From Candidatus Eiseniibacteriota bacterium (lineage in GTDB: Bacteria; Eisenbacteria; RBG-16-71-46; DASYSL01), in assembly GCA_031431875.1 (NCBI GenBank), contig JANPEF010000145.1, positions 1-27,119 of the forward strand: a stretch of DNA of 27,119 nt, in the 5' to 3' direction. Below are positions 1,653-21,334 of the stretch, piece by piece (position 1 is the stretch's first letter; the number at the start of each line of letters is the position of its first letter). Both the position numbers and the translations under genes were made by a program. Under the pieces are notes generated by a model that searched no databases, had not been told where the DNA came from, and saw nothing but the letters and a program-made list of their open reading frames with translations.

Positions 1653-2888
1653 CTACAGCTCGCGCCAGGCGATCGTCTGGATGTTGCCGCCGTACTTGGA
1701 GATCTTCTGCTGGATCGCCTCGGTCGAGAACAGTACGATCGCCGATCCGTTCGCGATCTTCACCATCGTCTTCCCGTTGACGACCAGCCCGCCCAGCAGC
1801 CAGCAGTTGCCGTTGATCGTCACGTCGCCCTCGGCGTAGATCAGGCCACGCCAGGTGAAGTTGCCGTTGAGCCCCAGGTCGCCGTCGACGTAGAGGAAGC
1901 CCTCGCCGTCCCCGCCGTTGTACGAGAAGTCGCCGCTCTTGTTCTGCTTCACGTTGTCGTTGTCGAGATAGAAGATCCCCTGCGGAGTCGCCGGCTCGGT
2001 TGCATAGCGGGTGCCGACCCAGGGCCAGAACACGGCCTGTTCCATTCCCAGGACGTCCCATGGACCCGAGTAGAACCCGCTCTGGTGGGCCCGCTGGCCC
2101 GAGGGTTCCCCCTGCACGGTCGGTGAGCCCTGCTGGGTGATCGCGTTCGACGACCACGCGCCCGGCAGGCAGGTCGTGTGCGCCGTGGTGGCCCACCAGG
2201 CGCCGATGCCCGTGTCGCAGGCCGGCGGCCCGAGCATGGCCGGTGTGTCGATGCGATGGTCATGCCCGCAGATCTTGATGTTGCCCTTGAACGAGATGGC
2301 CACGTTGGCTGCGACCGCCGCGCGGGCCATGACGTTGACGCGGCTGCGCGTCACTTCGGCATAGATGCTGCGATAGGCACCGTTGTTGCGCCCGGTCGAG
2401 TTGACCACCCAGATCGGGTTGCCGGTCGACTCATTGATCTTGGGCGTCGCTAGGTCGTCGTAGCGCTGGATCGTGTTGCCGATCCGCTTGTACTTGATCG
2501 ACAGGACGGTCGGGTTCTTGGTCGCCGACGAGTACGGCAGATACGCGCCCGCCGGCTGCAGCGTCGGCAGCGACGTCGTATCCGTGCCCGACACCGGGAT
2601 CGAGCCCGACACCGTGTTGTAGATCAGGTGGACGTTGCGCGGGTTCCCGTCGTCGAGGATGTCCCCGTTGCGGATCCGCAGCATCGCCTCCTGCATGCCG
2701 GCCTCGGCCACGGTCAGCGACTGCGTGTCGCGGATCTTGTAGCCGGCCATCTTCGTCTCGGTGTTGACGTTCGTCATGAGCGCCGCGGCGATCACGGTGA
2801 GCACCAGGATCACCATCAGGGCGAGCACGAGCGCCATACCCCGCTCGTCCCCGGCCCCCGTCGCGCGCTGCTTGCGCTGGCCTTCCAT
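1653..2888 (-). CDS. pilX: PilX-like type IV minor pilin with C-terminal beta-solenoid repeats
   Basis: ERG|MALVLALMVILVLTVIAAA prepilin leader lacking E5 (typical of PilX) and the A-E-A-G motif (VAEAGMQEA). C-terminal LYVDGDL/IYAEGDV/VVNGKT repeats. AAGGAG RBS favours ATG 2888 over 2915. Confidence 0.8.
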   Translation of the reverse strand: MEGQRKQRATGAGDERGMALVLALMVILVLTVIAAALMTNVNTETKMAGYKIRDTQSLTVAEAGMQEAMLRIRNGDILDDGNPRNVHLIYNTVSGSIPVSGTDTTSLPTLQPAGAYLPYSSATKNPTVLSIKYKRIGNTIQRYDDLATPKINESTGNPIWVVNSTGRNNGAYRSIYAEVTRSRVNVMARAAVAANVAISFKGNIKICGHDHRIDTPAMLGPPACDTGIGAWWATTAHTTCLPGAWSSNAITQQGSPTVQGEPSGQRAHQSGFYSGPWDVLGMEQAVFWPWVGTRYATEPATPQGIFYLDNDNVKQNKSGDFSYNGGDGEGFLYVDGDLGLNGNFTWRGLIYAEGDVTINGNCWLLGGLVVNGKTMVKIANGSAIVLFSTEAIQQKISKYGGNIQTIAWREL

Positions 2889-2911
2889 CGTCGGCTCCTT
2901 CCCTCGCCCGT

Positions 2912-5896
2912 TCATCGGATGAACACCAGGAGCGCACCGGTCGTCGCGCTCGTCTTCGTGGCCACGGCCATGTCGGTAAGCAGCGAGCCGGCAGTCGTCG
3001 GGTTGAGGCGATAGTTGAAGTTGTTCACCGTGATCGCCGGCGCCATGAAGTCGTGGCCGCCGGCGGCCGGGTCGACGCCCGACAGGGGCAGCACGCCCAG
3101 GTCGAGGTAGAGGATCCGGACGCCGCCGGTGTAGACCGACTCGCTGGTGCGGAACCCGTAGACGATGTCGTCGCGCGCGGCGCCACCGAAGTCGCCCTTG
3201 TTCAGCGCGAGAACCGGGCCGCTGGTGTCATAGGTCTGGGCCAGAAGGAAGCTGCCGCCGCCGGCGCCCTTCCAGTACTGGATGTTCCCGGCCACCGAGC
3301 TCACGCGGGTGCCGATCACCAGGTCGACGATGGCGTCGAAGTCGACGTAGGTCCAGGTCATGGAGGTCACCTCGCCGACCACGTCGAAGGTGCGCACGTG
3401 CCGGTAGCGGTTTCCCGCGGCGCGCGAGTTGTACCCGAGCACGTGGACCCGGCCGAAGCCCGGCGCGATTTTCGTGCCGACGATCATGTCCTTGAGGCCG
3501 TCGCCCGTGACGTCGACGAACGAGATGGCCTTGACCTCGCCCAGCGCGCCCGAGGGCAGGTTGCCGTTCGGCGGGTAGGTCTCGTCGCGCAGGAACGTGC
3601 CGATGCCCGAGTTGATCCACGTCTCGAGCGTGCCCGTATTGGCGGTGCCGGTCGTGCCGACGATGAAGTCGTTCGTCGTCGAACCGCCGAAATCCTGGAT
3701 GACGATCACGTTGGCATCGCCGGTGTTCTGGGTCTGGTAGAGGACGGGCAAGTTCGTCGGCGGGGGCGCGAGCTGGCCCAGGTTGCCCGACGAGTTCTGG
3801 TTCATCCACACGGCGATGTTTCCCGAAGGCTTCCTGGCGAGGCCGGTGACCACGTCCTCACGCTGCGACGGCGCCGTGATGTCGAGCGGACCCACGGCCA
3901 CCGACAAGGCCGAGGACTGGGCGTTGCGCGTGTAGGTCGGCGCGGCCGCGAAGCAGGTCGAGACCGTCGGCGGGTTCCAGCCGTTGAACCACACCGCGAT
4001 GTTCGGGTTCGAGACGTACTCGGAGCCGAGAATCAGGTCGATGTCGAACGAGCCCTTGGTCGCCCACTGGCCGTCCGAGCCGGTCCAGTCTTTCTCCAGC
4101 AGGTTGCCGCTCGACAGCGACAGCACGCGATCCGCGTTGAGCGTGATCTGCGTGAAGTTCGACATGCCGAAGTTGTTGCCGGTGAGCACCTGCGACGTGG
4201 CAATCCAGATCGGCGAGAGCATCACCGCCGTCGTCGGATAGTAGCCGCCAGGCGGAATGACCAGGACCTCGTACGGGGTCGCCGCGTCGGGCATGTTGTT
4301 GGGCGCCTCGACCGAGTAGTGGCCGGTCGAGTCGGTGTTGCCGAACGCCAGCGTCACGCTGCCGTTGAGCTTGGTGACGCCGACCCAGACGCCGAGCATC
4401 CCGGGTTCGCCGGTGTCCTTGATCCCGTCGCGGTCGAGGTCCTTGTAGACGTAGCCCTCGACCGTTCCGCTCGTGCCGCGGACCAGCTCGACGTAGTTGA
4501 GCGTGCTCATGTTGTTCGTGATCGCGACGCTGGCCGGGTTGGTCGAGTAGACGACCATCGACTCGGGCGCGGTGTACGTGGCGCTATGGGTGCCCGGGGG
4601 CAGGAACGTCTCCATCGCACCGGCGCCGTTCGATCGGTTGGTCTCCCCGCCGACGCTCACCGTCACTCCATCGACCATCTCATCGCCGTAGTCGAGGACG
4701 TGGTTGCCGTTCTGGTCGACGAAACACGAGTCCATCAGCCAGCCGCCCGTCCGCGCCGTGTCGGCGAAGCTGTGCATGAAGTCGCCCGGGTTGGCCAGGA
4801 AGTCGACCGTGATCGAGTCGCTGGCAAACGCGGCAAAGCCGGCCGGGGCGATCTGCTTCACGCCGTATACCGCCGGCGGGCCGGTCAGCCGGTAGTAGCC
4901 GAGGGAATTCGAGGTGCTGACCGAGACCGTCCCCATGCGCACCATGGCGTCGGGGATCCCGGGCTCGCCCACGTCCTTGTCGCCGCTGCGATTGAGGTCG
5001 TTGAAGATCCAGCCCTCGACCGAGTATAGCGTCGAGCCGGCGTTGGGAACGTTGCGGATCGAGTTCACCTCGTTGGTCAGCGTGGTGCGCGTGTACTCAC
5101 CGTCGGGGTCGGGGCGGCGCGCCTCGGTCGTGACCTGGAGCTCGACGCGCGAAATCTCCTCGAGCCGATCCAGCGGCACCGGTCCGTCGGACCAGTCCCA
5201 GGGAGTGTCGCTCGAGCCCATGTAGACGGTGAACAGGTGCGGGATCCCGGCGCCAGGACCGCGAACGAGCCCGACCTTCTCCTTGGAACCGCCGTTGTTC
5301 CCCGCCAGGTTGCCTGAGCTGTCGCCGTAGACGGCGCGCGCGAGGACGAAGTCGTTGGGGTTGGCCGTGCGCTCGGCCTCCTCGGCCAGCGCGTCGGCCT
5401 GGTCGCCCGCGTCGATCGCGCCGTCGTCGTTGAGGTCGAGCGTGTAGCGGATCGTCTCGGCGCCGGTGGCATAGCGCACCGTGGGCTCGTAGGCCGTCCC
5501 GTCGAGGACCGGCGGAAGCGGTGTGCCCGTGGGGCTGAGCGCCAGCGGCGAGAGCAGCGTGTCCGCCATCGGCAGCAGGTTCGCATTGATCACGAGCTCG
5601 ACCGAGTCGACGTAGGCGAACGCCAGCTGGGCAGGAGAGGCATTCGTGTCGGTCTTGTAGCCCGCCGAGCGGATGTCGTTGGCCAGGATGTCCGAAATCG
5701 TGCGCGCGTTCTGCTGCGCCTCGAGGCGGGCCTCCGTGACGGACTTGGAACGCTGGCTTCCGATCATCACGGTCGCAAGGACGGCGACCACGATCGCGAG
5801 CAGCACGAGCGTGACCATCATCTCGACCAGGGAGAAGCCGGCGCGGGGCGGTCGCGTCGGAAGGGAACGGCTCGAGTCGGTGCGCATGACGATCAC
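2912..5896 (-). CDS. pilW: PilW-like prepilin (N-methylation site) fused to ~3 SdrD B-like domains and a C-terminal FG-GAP/VCBS-repeat region
   Basis: G|FSLVEMMV leader and PilW-type ANDIRSAGY. SdrD-B-like motifs VEGWIFNDLNRSGDKDVGEPGI, FVDQNGNHVLDYGDEMVDGVTV and VEGYVYKDLDRDGIKDTGEPGM. FG-GAP motifs DVTGDGLKDMIVG, DFGGSTTNDFIVG and GDFGGAARDDIVYG. GTGA overlap with the upstream gene. Confidence 0.8.
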   Translation of the reverse strand: MIVMRTDSSRSLPTRPPRAGFSLVEMMVTLVLLAIVVAVLATVMIGSQRSKSVTEARLEAQQNARTISDILANDIRSAGYKTDTNASPAQLAFAYVDSVELVINANLLPMADTLLSPLALSPTGTPLPPVLDGTAYEPTVRYATGAETIRYTLDLNDDGAIDAGDQADALAEEAERTANPNDFVLARAVYGDSSGNLAGNNGGSKEKVGLVRGPGAGIPHLFTVYMGSSDTPWDWSDGPVPLDRLEEISRVELQVTTEARRPDPDGEYTRTTLTNEVNSIRNVPNAGSTLYSVEGWIFNDLNRSGDKDVGEPGIPDAMVRMGTVSVSTSNSLGYYRLTGPPAVYGVKQIAPAGFAAFASDSITVDFLANPGDFMHSFADTARTGGWLMDSCFVDQNGNHVLDYGDEMVDGVTVSVGGETNRSNGAGAMETFLPPGTHSATYTAPESMVVYSTNPASVAITNNMSTLNYVELVRGTSGTVEGYVYKDLDRDGIKDTGEPGMLGVWVGVTKLNGSVTLAFGNTDSTGHYSVEAPNNMPDAATPYEVLVIPPGGYYPTTAVMLSPIWIATSQVLTGNNFGMSNFTQITLNADRVLSLSSGNLLEKDWTGSDGQWATKGSFDIDLILGSEYVSNPNIAVWFNGWNPPTVSTCFAAAPTYTRNAQSSALSVAVGPLDITAPSQREDVVTGLARKPSGNIAVWMNQNSSGNLGQLAPPPTNLPVLYQTQNTGDANVIVIQDFGGSTTNDFIVGTTGTANTGTLETWINSGIGTFLRDETYPPNGNLPSGALGEVKAISFVDVTGDGLKDMIVGTKIAPGFGRVHVLGYNSRAAGNRYRHVRTFDVVGEVTSMTWTYVDFDAIVDLVIGTRVSSVAGNIQYWKGAGGGSFLLAQTYDTSGPVLALNKGDFGGAARDDIVYGFRTSESVYTGGVRILYLDLGVLPLSGVDPAAGGHDFMAPAITVNNFNYRLNPTTAGSLLTDMAVATKTSATTGALLVFIR

Positions 5897-6351
5897 CTGC
5901 GGAAGTACGTGACGAGGTCGATGGTGTCGGGCGTCTGGTACGTCCAGACGACCCGGGTGGTCACCTTCTTCATGTCCGCGAAGGAGCCGCTCTGCGCTTC
6001 GACGACCCAGTAGCGAATGAACGTTCCTTCGTCGACGAGCGACAGCGTGTCGCCGTCCGAGTCGGGGTGCGTCCCGACGTCGAGGTCCGCGGCGGACCAG
6101 GTCTGCAGGCGCAACTGCTCCATCTTCTGCTGGGCCAGGTCCGCAGCCGAGGTCCGCATCCGATCCCTCATCTGCGTGCGCGAACCGAGCGGAAACATGT
6201 TCGCGATGGTGAGAATGCCGATGCCCAGGAGGACGAGTGCGACCATGAGCTCGATGAGGCTGAAGCCGGCCGAGGCATCGTTCCGCCCGGGGGAGGCGGG
6301 GCGACGCGGCGGCAGGGGGCGCGGCGTGCGCACGAACGAGCGCGGGCTCAC
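5893..6351 (-). CDS. pilV: PilV-like type IV minor pilin
   Basis: G|FSLIELMVALVLLGIGIL and AADLAQQKMEQLR (PilV-type helix), C-terminal KVTTRVVW. GTG start at 6351 overlaps the upstream stop (GTGA). Confidence 0.8.
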   Translation of the reverse strand: MSPRSFVRTPRPLPPRRPASPGRNDASAGFSLIELMVALVLLGIGILTIANMFPLGSRTQMRDRMRTSAADLAQQKMEQLRLQTWSAADLDVGTHPDSDGDTLSLVDEGTFIRYWVVEAQSGSFADMKKVTTRVVWTYQTPDTIDLVTYFRR

Positions 6352-6818
6352 TGCCACACCGATCCGGACATGTCGACGTTGATCTGGATCGTGTCGGGGT
6401 TCGCGGTCGTCGAGATCAGCGACATCGTGCCCGAGGCGCTGGGTCTGCCGTCGGGGCTGTAGATGAAGTAGTTGATCCCGCCGAAGTTCGGGTTCTTCAC
6501 CAGGACGGTCGACGGGAGGTAGAGCGGACCCCGCCACTGCGTCGATCCCCAGCCCGAGCCACCCTGCCAGCGCTGCTCGCCGATCCAGTAGTAGTTGACG
6601 TCGCCCCAGGTCCAGAACCACATCTTGCTGTTGTTCGACACGGCCTTCTGCCGCGCCAGGCGCATCTCGCCCGCGATCCGGCTCGCCGAGCTGCGCAGGC
6701 GCGCCTCCGTCAGGTAGCGATTGAGGGACGGCGTCGAGAACGCGAGGATCAGCCCCGCGAGCAGGACGACGACCGACAGTTCGACGAGCGAGAAGCCCTT
6801 TTGATTCCGCAACGACAT
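6348..6818 (-). CDS. fimT: FimT/FimU/GspH-family minor pilin
   Basis: MSLRNQKG|FSLVELSVVVLLAG, ASRIAGEMRLARQKAVS, YSPDGRP...SG; GGGAGG RBS before ATG 6818. Confidence 0.85.
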   Translation of the reverse strand: MSLRNQKGFSLVELSVVVLLAGLILAFSTPSLNRYLTEARLRSSASRIAGEMRLARQKAVSNNSKMWFWTWGDVNYYWIGEQRWQGGSGWGSTQWRGPLYLPSTVLVKNPNFGGINYFIYSPDGRPSASGTMSLISTTANPDTIQINVDMSGSVWQ

Positions 6819-14303: not shown

Positions 14304-15599
14304 GTGAGCCCCGACGCGTCGTCCTCGACCCTGTTCAAGCGCTGCGTCCTCCCGGCCGCCCTGTGGCTGGCGCTCGCCGCACCGGACGCCCGCGCGGCCG
14401 ACAGGGGCGAGACCCGCGCCATCGCTCCGCTGATCAGCGAGACCTCGCCGCGCTTCGGCGCCGACCTGCGCGCCTCGCTCACCGCGCGCGGAACGGCGGT
14501 CGGCCTTGATCTCGAGATCCCGTACTCCGAGCTGCAGTTCATCCGCGTCCCGGGCGGCTATGGCGCCGTGCTCCAGGTGACGGTCGTGTTTCGCACCGCG
14601 AAGAAGAACGAGCAGGCCGGCGGCGACGTGTGGGAGGACCGCATCGCCGTGCCCACGATCGGGGCCTCGCGCGACCCGGCCGCGCGGGCGCGCTTCCGCC
14701 GCAGCTTCGCGCTCGAGCCCGGGGAGTACCGGGTCGAGCTCAGCGTCGAGGACCAGAACGGCGGCCGCGTCTCGCGTGCGCGCGGCACGCTCGCCGTGCC
14801 CGTGTTCGCCTCCGGCGGCCTCGGGCTCGGGGACCTCGAGTTCGGGTTGTGCGGCGCGGACGGCCGCTTCGTGTCGGTGCCGAGCCGCCGCTACGAGGCC
14901 GATCTGGCGATGCTGTGCGTCCGCGGGGCGGTCTACGATCGCAGCGTCGTGGCCGCCGAGCGCACCGTGGCGCTCAACTACGAAGTCCGCAGCGAGACGG
15001 GCGAGTCGGTCGCACATGGCGACACCGCGCTCGAAGTGAACGCGACGACGACGTTCGAACTCCGGCCGCGCGTGGGCAACCTGTTCCTCGGCCAGTACAC
15101 GCTGGCCGTCGAGGCGAAGGAGGGCAGCCGGCGCTGGAAGACCGAGCGCACCTTCGAGGTCGAGACGATGTCGCTGCCGCGCGGGCAGAGCTACGCCACG
15201 GTGATCGAGATCCTGTCCTACATCGCGACCGACGCCGAGTACGAACAGCTGCGCCGCGCCACCACCGATTCGACACAGCAGGTGGCGTGGGAGATGTTCT
15301 GGGGGCGGCGCGATCCATCCCCCGAGACGCCGCGCAACGAGGCGCTCATCGACTTCTTCCGCCGCGTGCGCTACGCCAACCGCACGTTCGCCATCCAGGG
15401 AGTGGCCGGCTGGCGCTGCGACCAGGGGCGCATCTGGATCCGCTACGGGCAACCCGACCAGGTCGAGGAGCGGCCGGCCACCTTCTACGAGCCGCCGATG
15501 CAGGTGTGGCAGTACTTCACGCTCAATCGTCGGTATGTGTTCGCCGATCGCGAGGGCTTCGGCCGCTACGAGCTGGTCTATCCGAGCGGGGAGCGATGA
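14304..15599 (+). CDS. GWxTD domain-containing protein
   Basis: LSYIATDAEY, FWGRRDPSPETPRNE, FRRVRYANRTF, GWRCDQGRIWIRYGQPD, VWQY, YVFADREGFGRYEL; signal peptide ending ARA. Confidence 0.9.
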   Translation: MSPDASSSTLFKRCVLPAALWLALAAPDARAADRGETRAIAPLISETSPRFGADLRASLTARGTAVGLDLEIPYSELQFIRVPGGYGAVLQVTVVFRTAKKNEQAGGDVWEDRIAVPTIGASRDPAARARFRRSFALEPGEYRVELSVEDQNGGRVSRARGTLAVPVFASGGLGLGDLEFGLCGADGRFVSVPSRRYEADLAMLCVRGAVYDRSVVAAERTVALNYEVRSETGESVAHGDTALEVNATTTFELRPRVGNLFLGQYTLAVEAKEGSRRWKTERTFEVETMSLPRGQSYATVIEILSYIATDAEYEQLRRATTDSTQQVAWEMFWGRRDPSPETPRNEALIDFFRRVRYANRTFAIQGVAGWRCDQGRIWIRYGQPDQVEERPATFYEPPMQVWQYFTLNRRYVFADREGFGRYELVYPSGER

Positions 15600-16540
15600 G
15601 TCTCGAGTTCGGGTCGTCCCCGATCATGAACGCGCTCACGGCACCGACCCCGCGCCACGCGACCGCACCCGCAGCCGCCGTCGTCGCCACCGGCGTGGTC
15701 GACCTGCGCCGCGCGCCGGACGCGGCGTCGGAACTCGTCTCGCAGTTGCTGTTCGGCGAGCCGCTGGCGGTGCTCGGCCGCTCGGACGACGGTCGCTTCC
15801 TCGACGTGCGCGGGCCCGACGGCTATCGTGGCTGGGCCCGCACGCTCGGCCTGGCGACCGGCGACGCGCCTGCGGTCGAGGCGTGGGCTGAGAGCGCGTC
15901 GCTGCGCGTGCGCCGGCCATGGGTGTGGCGCAGCGAGGGCGGGGGACCGCTGCCGGCGCAGGCATGGCTCGCTCCTGTCGCGGCCGATGCTGTACTCGGC
16001 CCGCTGGGTCCGGTCGCGCTCAAGCCTGCCGATCGCCGCGCCCTTGCTCCGGCAATCGTCGCCGGCTCCACCGTGCGGCGGCCGACGGCGCGCGCATGGA
16101 CGGCCGCACTCGCGCCCTATCTCGGCGTGTCCTACCTGTGGGGCGGGCGCACGGCGGCCGGCCTCGATTGCAGCGGTCTCATCCAACTGGTCGCCCTCGC
16201 GCTGGGGCTCGATCTGCCGCGCGATGCGCGCGACCAGTGCGCGCGGGTCGGCGGCGTCGACGCGCTGCGGGCGATTCCGGATGGGCCGGTCGTGCGCGCC
16301 GCCGCCGGCGCGCACCGGCCCCGCGCCGCGCTGCCGCGCGTGGGGGACTTGCTGTTCTTCGGCCCGCGCGTCGACAGCGTGACGCACATTGCCCTGTCGT
16401 CCGGAGGATTGCGGCTGTGGCACGCCTACGGCTGGGTCCGGGCGGCCTCGCTCGACCGCACGGACCTCTCCTACGAGCCCGAGCTGGGTGAGAACTTCCT
16501 CGGTTGGGGCCGGCTGCCGGGGGACCCCACAAGGGTTTGA
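15596..16540 (+). CDS. SH3 + NlpC/P60 (C40) cell-wall peptidase, YkfC-like
   Basis: ATGA overlap with the GWxTD gene. DLRRAPDAASELVSQLLFGE...DGYRGW (SH3b), YLWGGRTAAGLDCSGL, LPRDARDQ, GDLLFFG, THIAL. Confidence 0.9.
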   Translation: MSLEFGSSPIMNALTAPTPRHATAPAAAVVATGVVDLRRAPDAASELVSQLLFGEPLAVLGRSDDGRFLDVRGPDGYRGWARTLGLATGDAPAVEAWAESASLRVRRPWVWRSEGGGPLPAQAWLAPVAADAVLGPLGPVALKPADRRALAPAIVAGSTVRRPTARAWTAALAPYLGVSYLWGGRTAAGLDCSGLIQLVALALGLDLPRDARDQCARVGGVDALRAIPDGPVVRAAAGAHRPRAALPRVGDLLFFGPRVDSVTHIALSSGGLRLWHAYGWVRAASLDRTDLSYEPELGENFLGWGRLPGDPTRV

Positions 16541-16638
16541 CATTGACTCGAACTGCCCGCCGATGGACCATCCGCGGGTCGGCGCCAGGTCCGTCTCCGC
16601 GCTCCCATCCATTGGAGCGCGGTCCGGGCGTCCGCATA

Positions 16639-16673
16639 CCTTGTTCCGCTCGCCCGGAGCAGGGTTTTTGTTT
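16639..16673 (+). terminator. Intrinsic terminator (possibly part of an attenuator)
   Basis: CCTTGTTCCG-CTCGCC-CGGAGCAGGG stem (10 bp, including G-U pairs) followed by TTTTTGTTT. Confidence 0.8.
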
Positions 16674-16752
16674 CCCCCTTCCGTGAAGGCGGAGGGCTCC
16701 ATGGATCGGCTCGAGTGTGTCGATCCCAACTTTCCTCGTGGAGGTCCCATCC

Positions 16753-18090
16753 ATGCGGCATTTCCGTTCGCTCGTCCTCGCCGGCGTGGTCCTCGCGGGC
16801 CTGGTGCCGGCCGTGGCCCACGCCTCGCAGGCCCGCGTCGACGGCCTGGGCCTGCAGCCCGACTTCGTGCAGGACTACGTCAACGTCATCCATTACCCCT
16901 CGACCATCGTCAAGTACCAGAACCTCGTCTACGGTGACCTCGGCCTCAAGGACACCGACGGCGGGGACCTCAACGAGTTCGAGGACAATGTCGGCAGCGT
17001 GCCGGCGCTCGACAACAGCGCCCGCGCGATGGGCGCCCACCTCAAGCTGTGGAAGAGCATGCCTGGCGTGCTCGGCATCCAGCTCAACGAAAACGCCACG
17101 CCGCTGTCGCCCGCGTACGGCGCCGGCTACTGGAACCGCAACCGCAACGAGGGCGTGACGCTCTTGTGGGGCCAGGATTTCGGCGGGGTCACGGCGGGCT
17201 TCCAGTTCAACCGCACGTCGTCCGAGTATGAAACCTCGACCCTCACGATCGAGCCGTATCCCGTGGCGCCCGTCGGGATCGGCCCGCTGCCGACGAACAC
17301 CCGGCAGGCCATGAACACGATCAATGCGGCCCTCGGCGCCCGGCCGTGGAACACGACCGGCTTTGGTGGCGGCGTCTCGTTCGACTTCGATGCCGGGGGT
17401 CGCAGCCACACGGCGGACGTCGCCGTCCAGTACCGCAGCATGAGCTACGAGGTGGTGAACACGCAGCCCGCAGGGACCATCACCGAGGAGAGCGACGGCA
17501 GCTACGGCCTGGCGATCAACGCGCGCAGCCAGTATGCGACCTCGGACAACACGTACCTCGTGCCGGTGATCAACTACTGGACCCTGAGCCTCGACAACCG
17601 GGTCGTCGACGGCATCACGCCGGCGAATGACTTCGCGGCCGAGAACTCGGTCAACGGGTGGAGCTTCGGGCTGGCGGAGTCGTGGGTGCTGCGCGATGCC
17701 GACCTGCTCACGCTCGGAATCCAGCTGGGCCAGCAGGAGATCGAGTACGGCGACCTGCGGGTCGCCGGCGTCCCCTTCTCGGCCACGTACTCGACCACGC
17801 CGCTCCTGTTCGGCTCGGCCGAGGTGCACCCGATGAGCTGGTTCCACGTGCGCTTCGGCGCGAGCAAGGCCTTCACCAGCAAGCTCGAGGCCACCAACCC
17901 CGGCACGGGCGAGCCGGAGGAGGCGAAGGATTCCCCGCTCGGTTACTCGCTCGGCGCAGGCTTCCGCATCGGCGGCCGTCTCGACCTCGACGCGGTCCTC
18001 AACCAGGACTATGCGTTCACCGGCGGCTGGGCGGCTTCGGGCAACGAAGAGACGCCGTTCTCGCGGCTTTCGGCGACCTATCGCTGGTAA
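16753..18090 (+). CDS. Outer-membrane beta-barrel / porin-like protein (PopA-like)
   Basis: GGAGGT RBS, signal peptide ending AHA, amphipathic beta strands, C-terminal BAM signal SRLSATYRW, strongly biased codon usage. Confidence 0.82.
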   Translation: MRHFRSLVLAGVVLAGLVPAVAHASQARVDGLGLQPDFVQDYVNVIHYPSTIVKYQNLVYGDLGLKDTDGGDLNEFEDNVGSVPALDNSARAMGAHLKLWKSMPGVLGIQLNENATPLSPAYGAGYWNRNRNEGVTLLWGQDFGGVTAGFQFNRTSSEYETSTLTIEPYPVAPVGIGPLPTNTRQAMNTINAALGARPWNTTGFGGGVSFDFDAGGRSHTADVAVQYRSMSYEVVNTQPAGTITEESDGSYGLAINARSQYATSDNTYLVPVINYWTLSLDNRVVDGITPANDFAAENSVNGWSFGLAESWVLRDADLLTLGIQLGQQEIEYGDLRVAGVPFSATYSTTPLLFGSAEVHPMSWFHVRFGASKAFTSKLEATNPGTGEPEEAKDSPLGYSLGAGFRIGGRLDLDAVLNQDYAFTGGWAASGNEETPFSRLSATYRW

Positions 18091-18133
18091 TACAGTTGCG
18101 CCGGAACCGCGCAACAGGGTGTTGTCTTGATGC

Positions 18134-18159
18134 CGGGGCGCCTCGCAAGAGGCGCCCCG
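18134..18159 (+). terminator. GC-rich hairpin, likely terminator of the porin gene
   Basis: CGGGGCGCCTC-GCAA-GAGGCGCCCCG, 11 bp with GNRA loop and weak U-tail; preceded by hairpin GTTGCGC/GCGCAAC (18095-18115). Confidence 0.65.
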
Positions 18160-18237: not shown

Positions 18238-18267
18238 TTGACAGGGGCTTCACGCGGATCATAGTTT
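18238..18267 (+). promoter_or_regulatory. sigma70-type promoter for the TBDT operon
   Basis: TTGACA (18238-18243) followed by CATAGT (16-nt spacer) or TAGTTT (18-nt spacer). Confidence 0.6.
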
Positions 18268-18502
18268 TCTACGCCAATCCGTCGCCGACTGCCTCAGGTC
18301 GTCCCGGAACGGAACAAGGAAGTCGCGACGCCTCGCAATTCGAGCCCCGGCCGAACAGGAGGTGGCACCAGGGAACGGTCCCTGTCGAACTCTTTCCCCC
18401 GTACAGCACGAGTCGTTCCCGGCAACTGATCCTGTCGGTGTTCGTCCGGCGCATCCGCGCGACGGGGCGTGACCCCGCCCACGGCGAAAGGAGTCGTCTC
18501 CC

Positions 18503-21334
18503 ATGATTCGAGCCAACCACTTCCGGAGTCTGCGTGCGATCGCGCTCGCGGTCCTGGTGGCAGTTGCCGCCGGCCCGGCGCTCGCCGGCACGACCGGAAA
18601 GATCAGCGGTACCGTACGCGAACGCGGCAAGTCGATCCTGCCCGGCGTCACGGTGCTGGTCGAAGGAACCCGCCTCGGCGCCATCGCCGACGACACCGGG
18701 CATTTCACCATTCTCAACGTGCCGGCCGGCGCCTACACCGTTCGCGGCAAGCTGATCGGCTACGCCGACTACGTGCTCAACAAGGTCGAGGTTCGCCCGG
18801 ACTTCACGAGCGAGGTGACCCTCGAGATGGCGACCGATGCCATCCAGCAGGAACCCGTGATCGTCGAGTCGACGCGTCCGCTGATCCAGAAGGACGCGAC
18901 CGGGACGACCCGTTTCCTCAGCGGCGAGGACATCCAGAACCTGCCGACGCGTGGCTACAAGGACGCGGCGTCGCTGCAGAGCGGCGTCGTCAGCTACTCG
19001 CGCTCGTACGATCCGCGTGGCGTCGAGCGCGAATCGCAGAACTCGGCGCAGCTCATCGTGCGTGGCGGTCGTGCCAACGAGGTCGCCTACTACGTGGACG
19101 GGTTCTCGCAGCAGGATCCGCTCACGGGCGCGAGCACGACGAATATCTCGGGCAACTCGATCGACGAGGTCGCGGTCATGACCGGCGGCTTCAACGCCGA
19201 GTACGGAAAGATCTCCTCGGGCGTCATCAACGTCGTCACGCGCGAGGGCTCTGCCAGGTACTTCGGCTCGTTCGAGGCCGTGTCGGACATGTTGAGCGGA
19301 TCGTGGGTCGGCTCCGAGCGCTACGACTGGAACGTCTACGACGGCTCGTTCGGCGGCCCGGTGATCAAGGGCAACGACGTCGCCACGTTCTTCGTCTCGG
19401 GTGAGCGTCGCTGGCAGGCTGACCGCCAGACGCGCTTCGTGCCCTCGGCGCTGCAGGACGAGCAGGCGAACCTGTTCGGTACCCCCACGGGGCGATTGCA
19501 GAACAACTCGCTGGGCGGCTGGACCTGGTCGGGCAAGCTGTCGATCCGCCCGTCGGATCGCATGAACCTCAAGTTCGGGACCACCGGTTCGTCCGACGAC
19601 TGGCGCGAGTTCCTGCAGACCTACCTGTACAATCCGTCGCACATGCCGCGCTACGAGGACCGCAACAAGTCGGTCTTCGGGCAGGTCAATTACACGTTCA
19701 CGCCGAGCACCTTCGCCACGTTCGCGACCAGCTGGTTCGAGACCGAGCGCAAGCGCGGCGACGGCGTCTATTTCGACGACGTGCGCGCCTACAGCCAGTA
19801 CCCGGTCGGCAACCCGACATTCGACACCGACCTGCCCTACTTCTGGCCTGAAGGCCATGTGTTCGACGACTACCTGCACCGCAAGTCGTCGTACCTCGGC
19901 TTCCGCGGCGACGTGACGAGCCAGGTGAACCGCGATCACCAGTTCAAGGGCGGGTTCGACGCGCAGTTTCATACGCTCAAGTACTACAACGCGTACTTCC
20001 CGGCCGGCATCGGCTACGACTCGTTGGGCGCGCCGACGCTGGGCGCCTACCGGGACATCGACCGCTACGGGTTCGATGAGTTCGGCGAGGAAGTCGACTT
20101 TGCCGACGACGACCGGGACAGCCCGAAGCACCCGAAGACGATGGGGCTGTTCGTGCAGGACAAGTACGAACGCGAGGGCCTGATCGTCAACGGCGGGTTG
20201 CGCCTCGACTACATCGACACCGCGACCGAGGCGCTGGCCAGCGAGAGCGCGCCGCTCGGGGGCGACGACGTCCTGACCGACGACGACCTGCAGGCGAGCA
20301 AGACCTACACGCGGATTTCTCCGCGTCTGGGCGTGGCCTTCCCGGTCGACGAGAAGACGAAGCTGCGCGTCAACTACGGACAGTTCTTCCAGCAGGTCAA
20401 CCTGCAGGACCTGTACGTGTCGTACCGCTACCTCGAGCACAAGATTCGCACCGGCGGCTACTTCGTCGGATTCGGCAACCCGAACCTGAAGCCAGAGCGC
20501 ACCACCGCCTACGAGGTGGGCGTCGAGCACCAGATCGGCGAGCGCATGCGTATCGATGCGACCGCGTACTACAAGGACGTCAAGGACCTGGTCGAGATCG
20601 TCAACATCCCATCCAGCCCGAACGCGTTCTCGAGCTACAGGAACCGCGACTTCGCGACGATCAAGGGCATCGACGTCGGGTTCGTGATGCGGCCGGTGAA
20701 CAACATCTCAGCGGGGATCAACTACTCGCTCTCCTATGCCCAGGGCACCGGGTCGGTGTCGAACTCGCAGCGCAACGTGGCGTGGACGGCGTCGCAGCCG
20801 CCCAAGATGACGGCGCCGCTCGACTTCGACCAGCGCCACAAGCTGTCGATGAACGCCGACTACCGCCTGGGCAAGGGTCAGGGTCCCAAGGTCAGCGGGT
20901 CGCCGATCTTCGAGAACGCCGGAATCAACCTGCTGGTCAACATCGGCAGCGGCACGCCGTACACGCCGGTCGTGGTCTACGACGAGGTCTCGCTCGCCGC
21001 CGTGGCGACCACGCCGACGGGCTCGCTCAACTCGCGCTACGGGCCGTGGACGAGCTCGGTGGACATGAAGATCAACAAGGGCTTCACGCTCGGCGGGCTC
21101 GGGATGGACGCCTACGTGTGGGTGCTCAACGTGCTCGACACCAACAACCAGTACGGCGTCTACGAATCGTCGGGATCGGCGTTCACGACCAACTACCTGA
21201 ACACGCCGGCCGGGCAGCAGTTCCTGGCCGACCAGGGTCAGGCCGGTCAGGACACGTACGAACTCGCCGAAAGCAACCCCGACCTGTTCGGTAACCCGCG
21301 TCTCGTCCGCTTCGGACTGCGCGCCAACTTCTGA
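18503..21334 (+). CDS. TonB-dependent receptor with N-terminal carboxypeptidase-regulatory-like domain
   Basis: ALA|GTTGKISGTV, LPGVTVLVEGT, plug VRGGRANEVAYYVDG...TGGFNAEYG...SGVINVVT, GNPNLKPERTTAYEVG, C-terminal PRLVRFGLRANF; AAGGAG RBS. Confidence 0.95.
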   Translation: MIRANHFRSLRAIALAVLVAVAAGPALAGTTGKISGTVRERGKSILPGVTVLVEGTRLGAIADDTGHFTILNVPAGAYTVRGKLIGYADYVLNKVEVRPDFTSEVTLEMATDAIQQEPVIVESTRPLIQKDATGTTRFLSGEDIQNLPTRGYKDAASLQSGVVSYSRSYDPRGVERESQNSAQLIVRGGRANEVAYYVDGFSQQDPLTGASTTNISGNSIDEVAVMTGGFNAEYGKISSGVINVVTREGSARYFGSFEAVSDMLSGSWVGSERYDWNVYDGSFGGPVIKGNDVATFFVSGERRWQADRQTRFVPSALQDEQANLFGTPTGRLQNNSLGGWTWSGKLSIRPSDRMNLKFGTTGSSDDWREFLQTYLYNPSHMPRYEDRNKSVFGQVNYTFTPSTFATFATSWFETERKRGDGVYFDDVRAYSQYPVGNPTFDTDLPYFWPEGHVFDDYLHRKSSYLGFRGDVTSQVNRDHQFKGGFDAQFHTLKYYNAYFPAGIGYDSLGAPTLGAYRDIDRYGFDEFGEEVDFADDDRDSPKHPKTMGLFVQDKYEREGLIVNGGLRLDYIDTATEALASESAPLGGDDVLTDDDLQASKTYTRISPRLGVAFPVDEKTKLRVNYGQFFQQVNLQDLYVSYRYLEHKIRTGGYFVGFGNPNLKPERTTAYEVGVEHQIGERMRIDATAYYKDVKDLVEIVNIPSSPNAFSSYRNRDFATIKGIDVGFVMRPVNNISAGINYSLSYAQGTGSVSNSQRNVAWTASQPPKMTAPLDFDQRHKLSMNADYRLGKGQGPKVSGSPIFENAGINLLVNIGSGTPYTPVVVYDEVSLAAVATTPTGSLNSRYGPWTSSVDMKINKGFTLGGLGMDAYVWVLNVLDTNNQYGVYESSGSAFTTNYLNTPAGQQFLADQGQAGQDTYELAESNPDLFGNPRLVRFGLRANF

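What the first reader, a model, noticed from the sequence alone, without database searches (positions are those of the whole stretch)
16543..16755. Candidate novel riboswitch/attenuator upstream of the porin gene
Seen: a possible promoter TTGACT-17-GACCAT (16543-16571), then nested stems P1 GGCGCCAGG (16581-16589)/CCGGGCGTC (16624-16632) and P2 CCGCGCTCC/GGAGCGCGG (16597-16622), then a U-tailed terminator (16639-16673). The P1 3' strand TCCGGGCG (16623-16630) is perfectly complementary to CGCCCGGA (16651-16658) in the terminator loop and 3' arm, forming a mutually exclusive antiterminator. No clear promoter lies in the 80 nt between terminator and ATG, which hold two more hairpins. I do not recognise a known riboswitch class. 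Inference: an OFF-switch in which stabilised P1 permits termination.
Basis: partly seen in the sequence, partly recalled or inferred. Interest (0 to 1): 0.72.

Follow-up and report, generated by a model that had tools for sequence, protein, structure and literature searches.

The report
Conserved terminator leader of membrane-protein gene
The RNA leader in front of a large outer-membrane protein gene of an uncultured bacterium holds a real, conserved pair of hairpins ending in a transcription stop signal; it does not look like a metabolite-sensing riboswitch, but like a remodelled form of a wider, undescribed leader that in related bacteria carries binding sites for the regulator CsrA.

Summary
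All described elements are at the stated coordinates. The gene encodes a 16-strand barrel whose model best matches Bdellovibrio PopA; close relatives are Ca. Eisenbacteria. A promoter lies upstream of P1 in 69 of 71 orthologous leaders, so transcripts must pass the hairpins. In the 10 closest leaders, P1 and the U-tailed terminator are conserved with compensatory changes (94.5% of cells paired, 0/500 shuffles). Loops vary freely and Rfam finds nothing, so a metabolite aptamer is unlikely. In 57 leaders of the sister family the terminator's slot holds a hairpin with a CsrA-type CANGGANG loop (47 of 57), followed by a start-less SD-like element. Best reading: a 5'-terminal insulating hairpin plus a leaky intrinsic terminator (GraL-like), derived from a CsrA-target leader. 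Main rival: a factor-triggered switch through a P1-5'-strand/terminator-5'-arm helix (60/60 cells paired, nearly invariant). No RNA data cover the leader. New variant of a known kind; interest 0.45.

The parts
15596..16540 (+). Upstream SH3-NlpC/P60 gene; stop codon overlaps the -35 region, no terminator between it and P1
   Evidence: Pfam NLPC_P60 and SH3; start from my gene model; upstream of the barrel gene in 67 of 71 loci
16543..16571 (+). Sigma70-type promoter TTGACT-17-GACCAT; start site inferred near 16577-16579
   Evidence: Same pattern at the same distance from P1 in 69 of 71 leaders; first base of the -10 is G or C in 9 of 9 close leaders and T in 55 of 56 sister-family leaders; start site not measured
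16581..16632 (+). P1: long irregular 5'-terminal hairpin; conserved 5' strand GCCAGG (16584-16589), freely varying apical stem-loop (16597-16622)
   Evidence: 89.9% of cells paired, 3 of 10 pairs with two-sided change; GCCAGG in 10 of 10 close and 45 of 57 sister-family leaders
16638..16673 (+). Intrinsic-terminator-like hairpin (11 bp) with U5GU3 tail; occupies the slot of the CsrA-site hairpin of the sister family
   Evidence: 99% of cells paired, 3 of 10 pairs with two-sided change; run of 5 U in 6 of 10, 4 U in 3 of 10, broken in 1 of 10; positional homology read by eye
16584..16644 (+). Candidate alternative helix 1:3 (GCCAGGU 16584-16590 with ACCUUGU 16638-16644, one C-U mismatch), exclusive with both P1 and the terminator
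   Evidence: 60 of 60 cells paired but 4 of 6 pairs never vary, 194/500 shuffles; 3.4 kcal/mol above P1 in the nascent RNA here, 1.0-11.3 across 10 leaders
16623..16658 (+).
   Evidence: 70.1% of cells paired, no better than shuffles; 3.3 kcal/mol above the terminator with P1 opened
16677..16696 (+). Hairpin 3, burying a purine-rich stretch that looks like the vestige of the sister family's start-less SD-like element
   Evidence: Fold; likeness clearest in L028; inference by eye
16703..16726 (+). Hairpin 4; its 5' base overlaps the only ANGGA in this leader (16700-16707), lost at that place in the two closest relatives
16740..16745 (+). Shine-Dalgarno GGAGGT in a weak hairpin
   Evidence: predicted unpaired probability 0.19
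16753..18090 (+). 445-aa outer-membrane beta-barrel, PopA-like
   Evidence: No Pfam hit; model pLDDT 78, pTM 0.77, about 16 long strands by my count; best Foldseek match PopA 9gf0/9ga1, E 1e-12, TM 0.56/0.73, 12-14% identity; homologues in 90 of 121 genomes

Best explanation
The stretch is the 5' leader of a PopA-like outer-membrane barrel gene. Transcription starts a few bases before P1. P1 folds first as a 5'-terminal hairpin, which likely protects the RNA end and ties up upstream sequence so that the next hairpin folds unhindered. That hairpin and its U-tract form an intrinsic terminator that releases a roughly 95-nt RNA from a share of transcripts; the mRNA is the read-through fraction. 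The default is termination with leak, as in the E. coli greA leader (GraL); any modulation would come from general elongation factors or RNA chaperones, not from a metabolite-binding pocket. The terminator arose in this family by remodelling an older hairpin that, in the sister family, displays a CsrA site, so control appears to have moved from CsrA binding to transcription dosage. Shown by comparison: promoter position, both helices, the CsrA-type hairpin of the sister family, failure of the named antiterminator. Inferred: start site, actual termination and its efficiency, stabilising role of P1, homology and direction of the remodelling, protein abundance.
For: Promoter upstream of P1 in 69 of 71 leaders. 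P1 plus terminator: 94.5% of 199 cells paired, 14 two-sided changes, 0/500 shuffles, all slid controls at or below 62.5%. Terminator core probability 0.99-1.00 by default and 0.85-1.00 with the P1 5' strand blocked, 10 of 10. In the nascent RNA the terminator 5' arm is less sequestered (0.07-0.94, median 0.24 by my count) than in 116 genome controls (median 0.66). The genome uses U-tailed terminators and this tail is among the 12 U-richest of 116. Loops vary in length and sequence. Sister family: CANGGANG in 47 of 57 (52 with a one-base longer loop), start-less SD-like element in 55 of 57, CANGGAGG at the SD in 45 of 57; hairpin formed in 46 of 53 and GGA unpaired in 50 of 53; two-sided changes in that stem. 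CsrA in 110 of 121 genomes, two copies here. L033 keeps the SD-like element behind the terminator and the same TTTTGGC tail as the sister family. Precedent: GraL, 11-bp stem, AU7GCU2 tail, two thirds terminate, unaffected by growth phase (PMC2836576 abstract).
Against: No transcript data: the single RNA run found did not cover the leader. The U-run is partly inherited (a U3-4 run follows the CsrA hairpin in the sister family, mean 4.4 U in 9 nt), so it need not have been selected for termination; the tail is broken in L068 and only U4 in 3 of 10. The stem is weak for this genome. Both GCCAGG and CCTTG are invariant in 10 of 10, more than plain hairpins need, and they are complementary, which a purely constitutive terminator does not explain. 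Only 10 close leaders, in about 6 independent lineages by my grouping. CsrA binding is not shown; CANGGANG is not strand-enriched in this genome's leaders (105 sense, 113 antisense), and a model predicts few Eisenbacteria CsrAs repress B. subtilis hag (PMC13443453 passages).
Confidence: 0.45

Rival explanations
1. A true two-state attenuator switched by a trans-acting protein or small RNA. Default 1:2 plus 3:4 terminates; a factor that binds or melts the P1 3' strand or inner stem lets the P1 5' strand (GCCAGGU) capture the terminator 5' arm (RCCUUGY) before the 3' arm is made, giving read-through.
For: Helix 1:3 pairs in 60 of 60 cells, with one two-sided change; slid controls at or below 66.7%. 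It pairs two otherwise odd invariant bases: the A that is mismatched or bulged in P1 in 6 of 10 leaders (by eye) and the U that is a wobble in the terminator in 9 of 10. It uses the arm that is transcribed first. It lies only 1.0-5.6 kcal/mol above P1 in the window's three-genome clade. A local 2:3 hairpin pairs in 81.4% of cells.
Against: 4 of 6 pairs never vary and 194/500 shuffles do as well; the extended helix is no better than shuffles (84.1%, 255/500); it is 6.0-11.3 kcal/mol above P1 in the other 7 leaders; 2:3 has no two-sided change; no factor identified; GCCAGG is equally conserved in the sister family, where I found no such partner by eye.
Confidence: 0.22
2. The second hairpin and U-run are not an efficient terminator but a pause, processing or protein-loading site in a stabilising 5' UTR of an abundant envelope protein, like the ompA or start-less-SD leaders.
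For: The U-run is ancestral and short in the sister family; P1 itself is followed by a U-rich stretch there (mean 5.2 of 9 against 2.0 expected, 24 of 54 with 6 or more); broken tail in L068; PopA is the major OMP of Bdellovibrio (PMC12228718 passages); 5' occlusion or a strong SD without a start codon stabilises mRNA (PMC3997798 passage).
Against: In this family the stem is longer, 99% paired and the tail here is U5GU3, as good as the best tails in the genome.
Confidence: 0.17
3. One reading: a metabolite-binding OFF-switch in which ligand stabilises P1 and frees the terminator from the 16623-16630/16651-16658 helix.
For: The complement is exact here and kept (one G-U) in the two closest relatives; duplex p = 0.028; with upstream read-through sequence the minimum-energy fold contains it; leader terminators with conserved P1 are typical of riboswitches (general knowledge).
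Against: Not conserved beyond 3 of 10; less stable than the terminator even when P1 is open; it needs the loop and upper 3' arm, which leave the polymerase only at the termination point, so it cannot pre-form (inference from standard elongation-complex geometry); no conserved unpaired core; no Rfam match; the sister family has a protein-binding motif in that slot.
Confidence: 0.06
4. The terminated ~95-nt RNA is itself the selected product: a trans-acting small RNA using pyrimidine-rich loops on G-rich ribosome-binding sites, like Xanthomonas sX13.
For: Best sub-threshold Rfam match is sX13 over 16581-16671 (23.7 bits, E 0.013 for 321 nt); terminator loops are C/U-rich, ATTCCTC in 4 of 10; GraL's conservation suggested a role for the short RNA.
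Against: Far below the gathering score of 50; no such match in four other close loci at E 0.5 or better; loop sequences are not conserved across the 10.
Confidence: 0.06
5. The terminator only ends the NlpC/P60 operon and the barrel gene starts downstream.
For: No other terminator lies between the NlpC stop and P1; the gene order is conserved in 67 of 71 loci. It probably does also stop NlpC read-through.
Against: The conserved promoter lies upstream of P1; none of the pattern lies downstream; in L067 only about 30 nt separate stem and ATG.
Confidence: 0.04

Closest known systems
E. coli greA leader terminator / GraL (PMC2836576; abstract and outline seen)
   Same: Promoter, short leader, 11-bp stem with imperfect U tail inside the leader of a gene that must still be expressed; conserved stem
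   Different: Here a long conserved 5' hairpin precedes the terminator, the gene is an outer-membrane barrel, and termination has not been measured
CsrA/RsmA-target leaders: E. coli glgC, B. subtilis hag (PMC7652899 and PMC13443453; passages seen)
   Same: The sister-family version has an ANGGAN hexaloop hairpin plus a second site on the SD, the canonical two-site design
   Different: The window's family has lost the loop site (none of 10 has it in that hairpin) and has a U-tailed stem in its place; the target is an envelope barrel; a third, start-less SD-like element lies between the sites
Protein-dependent and leader-peptide transcription attenuators (1:2/2:3/3:4 design; recalled)
   Same: Upstream hairpin, terminator, possible alternative pairings
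   Different: No conserved leader peptide seen by eye; the best-kept alternative is 1:3, not 2:3; no covariation support
Transcriptional OFF riboswitches (purine, SAM-I, c-di-AMP and others; recalled)
   Same: P1-like domain directly before a terminator
   Different: No conserved junction or loop bases, no Rfam family, no conserved antiterminator
Stabilising 5' UTRs (ompA 5'-terminal stem-loop, cryIIIA start-less SD; PMC3997798 passage and reference titles seen)
   Same: 5'-terminal hairpin; strong SD-like sequence without a start codon about 100 nt upstream of the ATG in the sister family and in 4 of 4 loci of other families
   Different: The SD-like element is mostly lost or buried in the window's family (1 of 10); stability not tested
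PopA (Bd0427) lipid-trapping porin-like superfamily (PMC12228718; passages and a supplement search seen)
   Same: Best structural match; 16-strand barrel with N-terminal plug region
   Different: 12-14% identity; oligomer state and abundance untested; its leader regulation is not discussed in the passages seen

Membership tests
Known Rfam riboswitch or cis-regulatory family | Covariance-model match at the gathering score | tested here: not met
   0 matches in the window; best E-value hit sX13 at 23.7 of 50 bits; none in 15 orthologous barrel loci
Metabolite-binding riboswitch (new class) | Conserved unpaired or non-canonical core | tested here: not met
   Invariant columns lie in helix strands; loops vary in length and sequence
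Metabolite-binding riboswitch (new class) | Conserved mutually exclusive antiterminator | tested here: inconclusive
   Named helix fails; 2:3 has no covariation; 1:3 always pairs but is nearly invariant
Metabolite-binding riboswitch (new class) | Ligand-dependent structural change | not testable with these tools
   Needs in-line probing
Intrinsic terminator | GC-rich hairpin directly followed by a U-tract | tested here: met
   run of at least 4 U in 9 of 10 close leaders
Intrinsic terminator | Transcript release at the U-tract | not testable with these tools
   The only RNA run held is contigs and does not cover the leader
CsrA-target leader (window's own leader) | ANGGA in a hairpin loop and on the SD | tested here: not met
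   One ANGGA at 16701-16705, in a stem base and not kept in L027/L028; SD lacks it
CsrA-target leader (sister-family version) | ANGGA in a hairpin loop and on the SD | tested here: met
   47 of 57 strict, loop unpaired in 50 of 53, SD site in 45 of 57; CsrA in 83 of 89 genomes of that family
CsrA-target leader (sister-family version) | Binding and regulation by CsrA | not testable with these tools
   Needs gel shift and reporter assays
Leader-peptide attenuator | Conserved short ORF before the terminator | tested here: not met
   No conserved start codon with SD in the 10 aligned leaders, judged by eye
sX13 sRNA (RF02232) | Three stable stems with conserved C-rich loops; gathering score | tested here: not met
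   23.7 of 50 bits, third stem missing; loops not conserved
PopA superfamily (downstream protein) | 16-strand barrel with plug | tested here: met
   About 16 long strands by my count in the model; top four Foldseek rows are PopA
PopA superfamily (downstream protein) | Radial oligomer with lipid chamber | not tested
   No oligomer prediction run

The most novel reading that the evidence does not exclude
An undescribed leader family controls the PopA-like major outer-membrane protein across an Eisenbacteria order, and the window's family has swapped its input: the CsrA-binding hairpin became a terminator that is switched by an unusual 1:3 helix. The trigger would be a protein that recognises the GCCAG stem base, which also opens U-tailed hairpins in 13 of 31 cold-shock-gene leaders examined but only 3 of 116 intergenic U-tailed hairpins of this genome, 2 of them before csp genes; cold-shock-domain proteins, known to weaken intrinsic terminators (PMC9765468 passages), are the obvious candidates. 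That would tie envelope-barrel output to the Csp antitermination circuit through a shared RNA element.
Probability: 0.1. Interest if true: 0.78.

Novelty: new variant of a known kind. Interest (0 to 1): 0.45.

Why it matters
It defines a conserved, apparently undescribed RNA leader for a phylum without cultured members, with a textbook-looking CsrA target in one family and a terminator in its place in another. That is a natural case of one RNA hairpin changing regulatory input, and it points to a CsrA target in bacteria where flagellin was mostly not found. It is directly testable in E. coli or B. subtilis reporters. It is not evidence for a new riboswitch class. Not found in print in four searches of the held library (Eisenbacteria + riboswitch: 0 papers; Eisenbacteria + CsrA: 2 papers, passages of one read and not about this leader, the other seen as a listing only; Eisenbacteria/leader/RNA motif: none of the 10 listed names the phylum; CsrA/terminator/leader/porin listing); subscription journals are not covered.

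Tried and rejected
Rfam at gathering score and by E-value: nothing credible. Second copies in the genome: none by BLAST or by a covariance model of the 10 close leaders, which found one copy in each of 8 of 41 genomes plus 3 weak hits (E 0.007-0.04) not examined. RNA evidence: one run with 0.06 of the words; it leaves 16332-16851 uncovered, so it says nothing. The 'no-terminator' rows were mis-constrained and are replaced. In the sister family, an alternative pairing of the CsrA-hairpin 5' strand with the SD-like element was predicted in only 2 of 53, and a U-run/SD-like helix in few: rejected as general features. A small ORF behind the SD-like element and a second promoter overlapping the terminator: not seen by eye. 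Genome-wide CsrA-site enrichment: none over the antisense strand. Earlier scan findings: none on this locus or its relatives; four unrelated notes in the genome. Rows dropped before counting: L066 (46 nt upstream only), L069/L070 (same identities as G002/G001), L110 (contig ends inside the gene); 22 of the 90 genomes with a protein match were not fetched; 3 of 57 sister-family loci were left out of alignment A5 (near-duplicate L038, shortened L083, truncated L076).

Full report
Observation. The segment folds better than shuffles (z -3.15; terminator alone -3.56; P1 alone -1.66). No Rfam family reaches its gathering score in the window.

The gene. The ORF 16753-18090 (445 aa) has no Pfam match. 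An alignment-based model (36 sequences, pLDDT 78) shows about 16 long strands by my count, and its four best structural matches are Bdellovibrio PopA (E 1e-12, 12-14% identity), described as the major OMP of that predator and the type member of an oligomeric porin-like superfamily (PMC12228718, passages). A supplement search of that paper found one Eisenbacteria entry, a 253-aa protein; I did not establish which table it belongs to, and one supplement file could not be searched. Abundance here is inferred. The two closest named relatives are Ca. Eisenbacteria. Homologues were found in 90 of 121 related genomes.

Orthologous leaders. I extracted 71 leaders: 69 from 68 of those 90 genomes and 2 from metagenome contigs. 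Ten are 'close' (8 genomes of the window's family including itself, plus L067 and L068, which I placed there by 63-71% protein identity and leader likeness), 57 belong to the sister family and 4 to other families of the class. One of the ten (L029) is from unpublished genome G007; it enters all ten-row counts, and no conclusion rests on it alone. A TTGAC-17/18-NANNNT promoter pattern occurs once in 69 of 71, upstream of P1; the misses are L033 (19-nt spacer by eye) and L076 (truncated). An NlpC/P60 gene lies upstream in 67 of 71. So the terminator lies inside this gene's leader, although it probably also stops NlpC read-through.

What is conserved in the ten. P1 and the terminator pair in 94.5% of 199 cells with 14 two-sided changes; 0 of 500 shuffles reach this and slid controls stay at or below 62.5%. 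The structure was taken from these sequences and kin are not independent, so this is support, not proof. Loops and the apical stem vary freely. The tail has 5 U in a row in 6, 4 in 3, and is broken in L068. A covariance model of the ten finds one copy in each of 8 of 41 genomes, at the training loci, and three weak hits that I did not examine.

The proposed switch. With P1's 5' strand forced open the terminator core still forms (0.85-1.00 in 10 of 10), and the named helix lies 3.3 kcal/mol above it. It also uses the loop and upper 3' arm, which emerge only at the termination point (inference). In its favour: duplex p = 0.028 here (3 of 10 below 0.05), and it appears in the minimum-energy fold, not the centroid, when 37 upstream bases are included. 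A local 2:3 hairpin pairs in 81.4% of cells without two-sided change. The best-kept alternative is 1:3, GCCAGGU with RCCUUGY: 60 of 60 cells, one two-sided change, but 4 of 6 pairs invariant and 194/500 shuffles as good; extended, it is no better than shuffles. It lies 1.0-5.6 kcal/mol above P1 in the window's clade and 6.0-11.3 elsewhere. In the nascent RNA the terminator arm is less sequestered (median 0.24) than in 116 genome controls (0.66): P1 insulates the terminator.

Is it a terminator? With a home-made gene model (3052 genes) I found 116 intergenic U-tailed hairpins; this one is among the 12 with at least 8 U in 9, while its stem (-16.3 kcal/mol) is weaker than most listed. Other leaders in the genome carry such hairpins, including two csp genes and the infC operon (gene names by eye from the translations). 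No RNA data cover the locus.

The wider leader. In the sister family the same promoter and GCCAGG hairpin (45 of 57 exact) are followed by a U-rich stretch (mean 5.2 of 9 against 2.0), then a hairpin whose loop holds CANGGANG (47 of 57 strict, 52 relaxed), a short U-run, a start-less SD-like element (55 of 57; also 4 of 4 in other families; 1 of 10 close) and an SD reading CANGGAGG (45 of 57). The hairpin is predicted in 46 of 53 with GGA unpaired in 50 of 53 and shows two-sided changes. This matches the CsrA site described as RUACARGGAUGU in an ANGGAN hexaloop, with a second site on the SD (PMC7652899, passages). CsrA is in 110 of 121 genomes, twice in this one. The window's terminator sits in the slot of that hairpin; L033 bridges the two forms, keeping the SD-like element and the same TTTTGGC tail (homology by eye). 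Against: CANGGANG is not strand-enriched in this genome's leaders (105 against 113), though the fliW-csrA leader has two loop sites; and a model predicts that few Eisenbacteria CsrAs repress B. subtilis hag, which its authors say does not mean inactivity (PMC13443453, passages).

Mechanism. Most likely (0.45): 5'-terminal insulating hairpin plus leaky intrinsic terminator, like the greA leader, where an 11-bp stem with an AU7GCU2 tail stops two thirds of transcripts regardless of growth phase (PMC2836576, abstract and outline), here derived from a CsrA-site hairpin. Rivals: factor-triggered 1:3 attenuator (0.22), pause or stabilising structure (0.17), metabolite riboswitch (0.06), sX13-like small RNA (0.06; sub-threshold Rfam hit; PMC3771888 abstract and outline), NlpC terminator only (0.04). 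The direction of the remodelling is assumed from the wider spread of the sister form; I built no tree.

Novel reading. The GCC(G)CAG stem base also opens U-tailed hairpins in 13 of 31 csp leaders examined (these are kin and paralogues, not independent) but only 3 of 116 such hairpins in this genome. A G(C/T)CAG follows 4 of 138 intergenic promoter-like sites, so a chance match is possible. Csp proteins can weaken intrinsic terminators (PMC9765468, passages). A shared Csp-responsive element is open but unproven (0.1).

Verdict. Real, selected RNA structure; the riboswitch and the named antiterminator are not supported; an undescribed leader family with a lineage-specific terminator. Not found in print in the searches; papers not named above were seen as listings only, and PMC3997798 as passages. 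New variant of a known kind, interest 0.45.

Noticed in passing
G000:C91, about 27100-27330, minus strand, upstream of an NAD-synthetase-like gene: Four or five CANGGA(A/G)G-type sites in short hairpins ending in a U-tailed terminator, with a possible sigma54-type promoter upstream (by eye): candidate CsrB/RsmZ-like sponge RNA.
   Followed up: partly
G000:C115:16875-17650: fliW-csrA operon outside any flagellar cluster, with two CsrA-type loop sites in its leader. FliW found in this genome and 7 of 9 of its family but 0 of 18 of the sister family; Flagellin_N not found in this genome and only a 44-residue piece in 1 of 9 family members. What FliW partners with here is open.
   Followed up: partly
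G000:C45:3400-3546 and C139:4120-4266 (L124, L125) and relatives: Cold-shock gene leaders with a conserved GCC(G)CAG hairpin and long U-tract, plus further conserved blocks: a candidate csp attenuator motif (13 of 31 loci); only sub-threshold match to the Rfam cspA family.
   Followed up: partly
window 18238-18503: Promoter TTGACA-16-CATAGT and a 235-nt leader of the TonB-dependent receptor with CAAGGAAG (CsrA-type) and an AGGAGGTGG element without a start codon.
   Followed up: no
window 18133-18159: Strong hairpin after the barrel gene's stop codon has no U-tail, unlike the leader hairpin.
   Followed up: no
G032:C93, G038:C6, G041:C14, G098:C340, G033:C446: Tandem arrays of 6-10 paralogues of the PopA-like barrel in one sister-family genus.
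   Followed up: no
G000:C50:907-1512 minus strand (L126): Leader of a 201-aa secreted protein carries the same start-less SD-like element (GAAAGGGGGTG) 88 nt before its start region.
   Followed up: no
G000:C140, about 21085-21205: Strong U-tailed hairpin in the leader of an infC-like gene; resembles ribosomal-protein L20 leader attenuation (recalled).
   Followed up: no
window 1653-6621, minus strand: Cluster of pilin-type genes (N-methyl motifs, PilX_N, SdrD-B domains).
   Followed up: no
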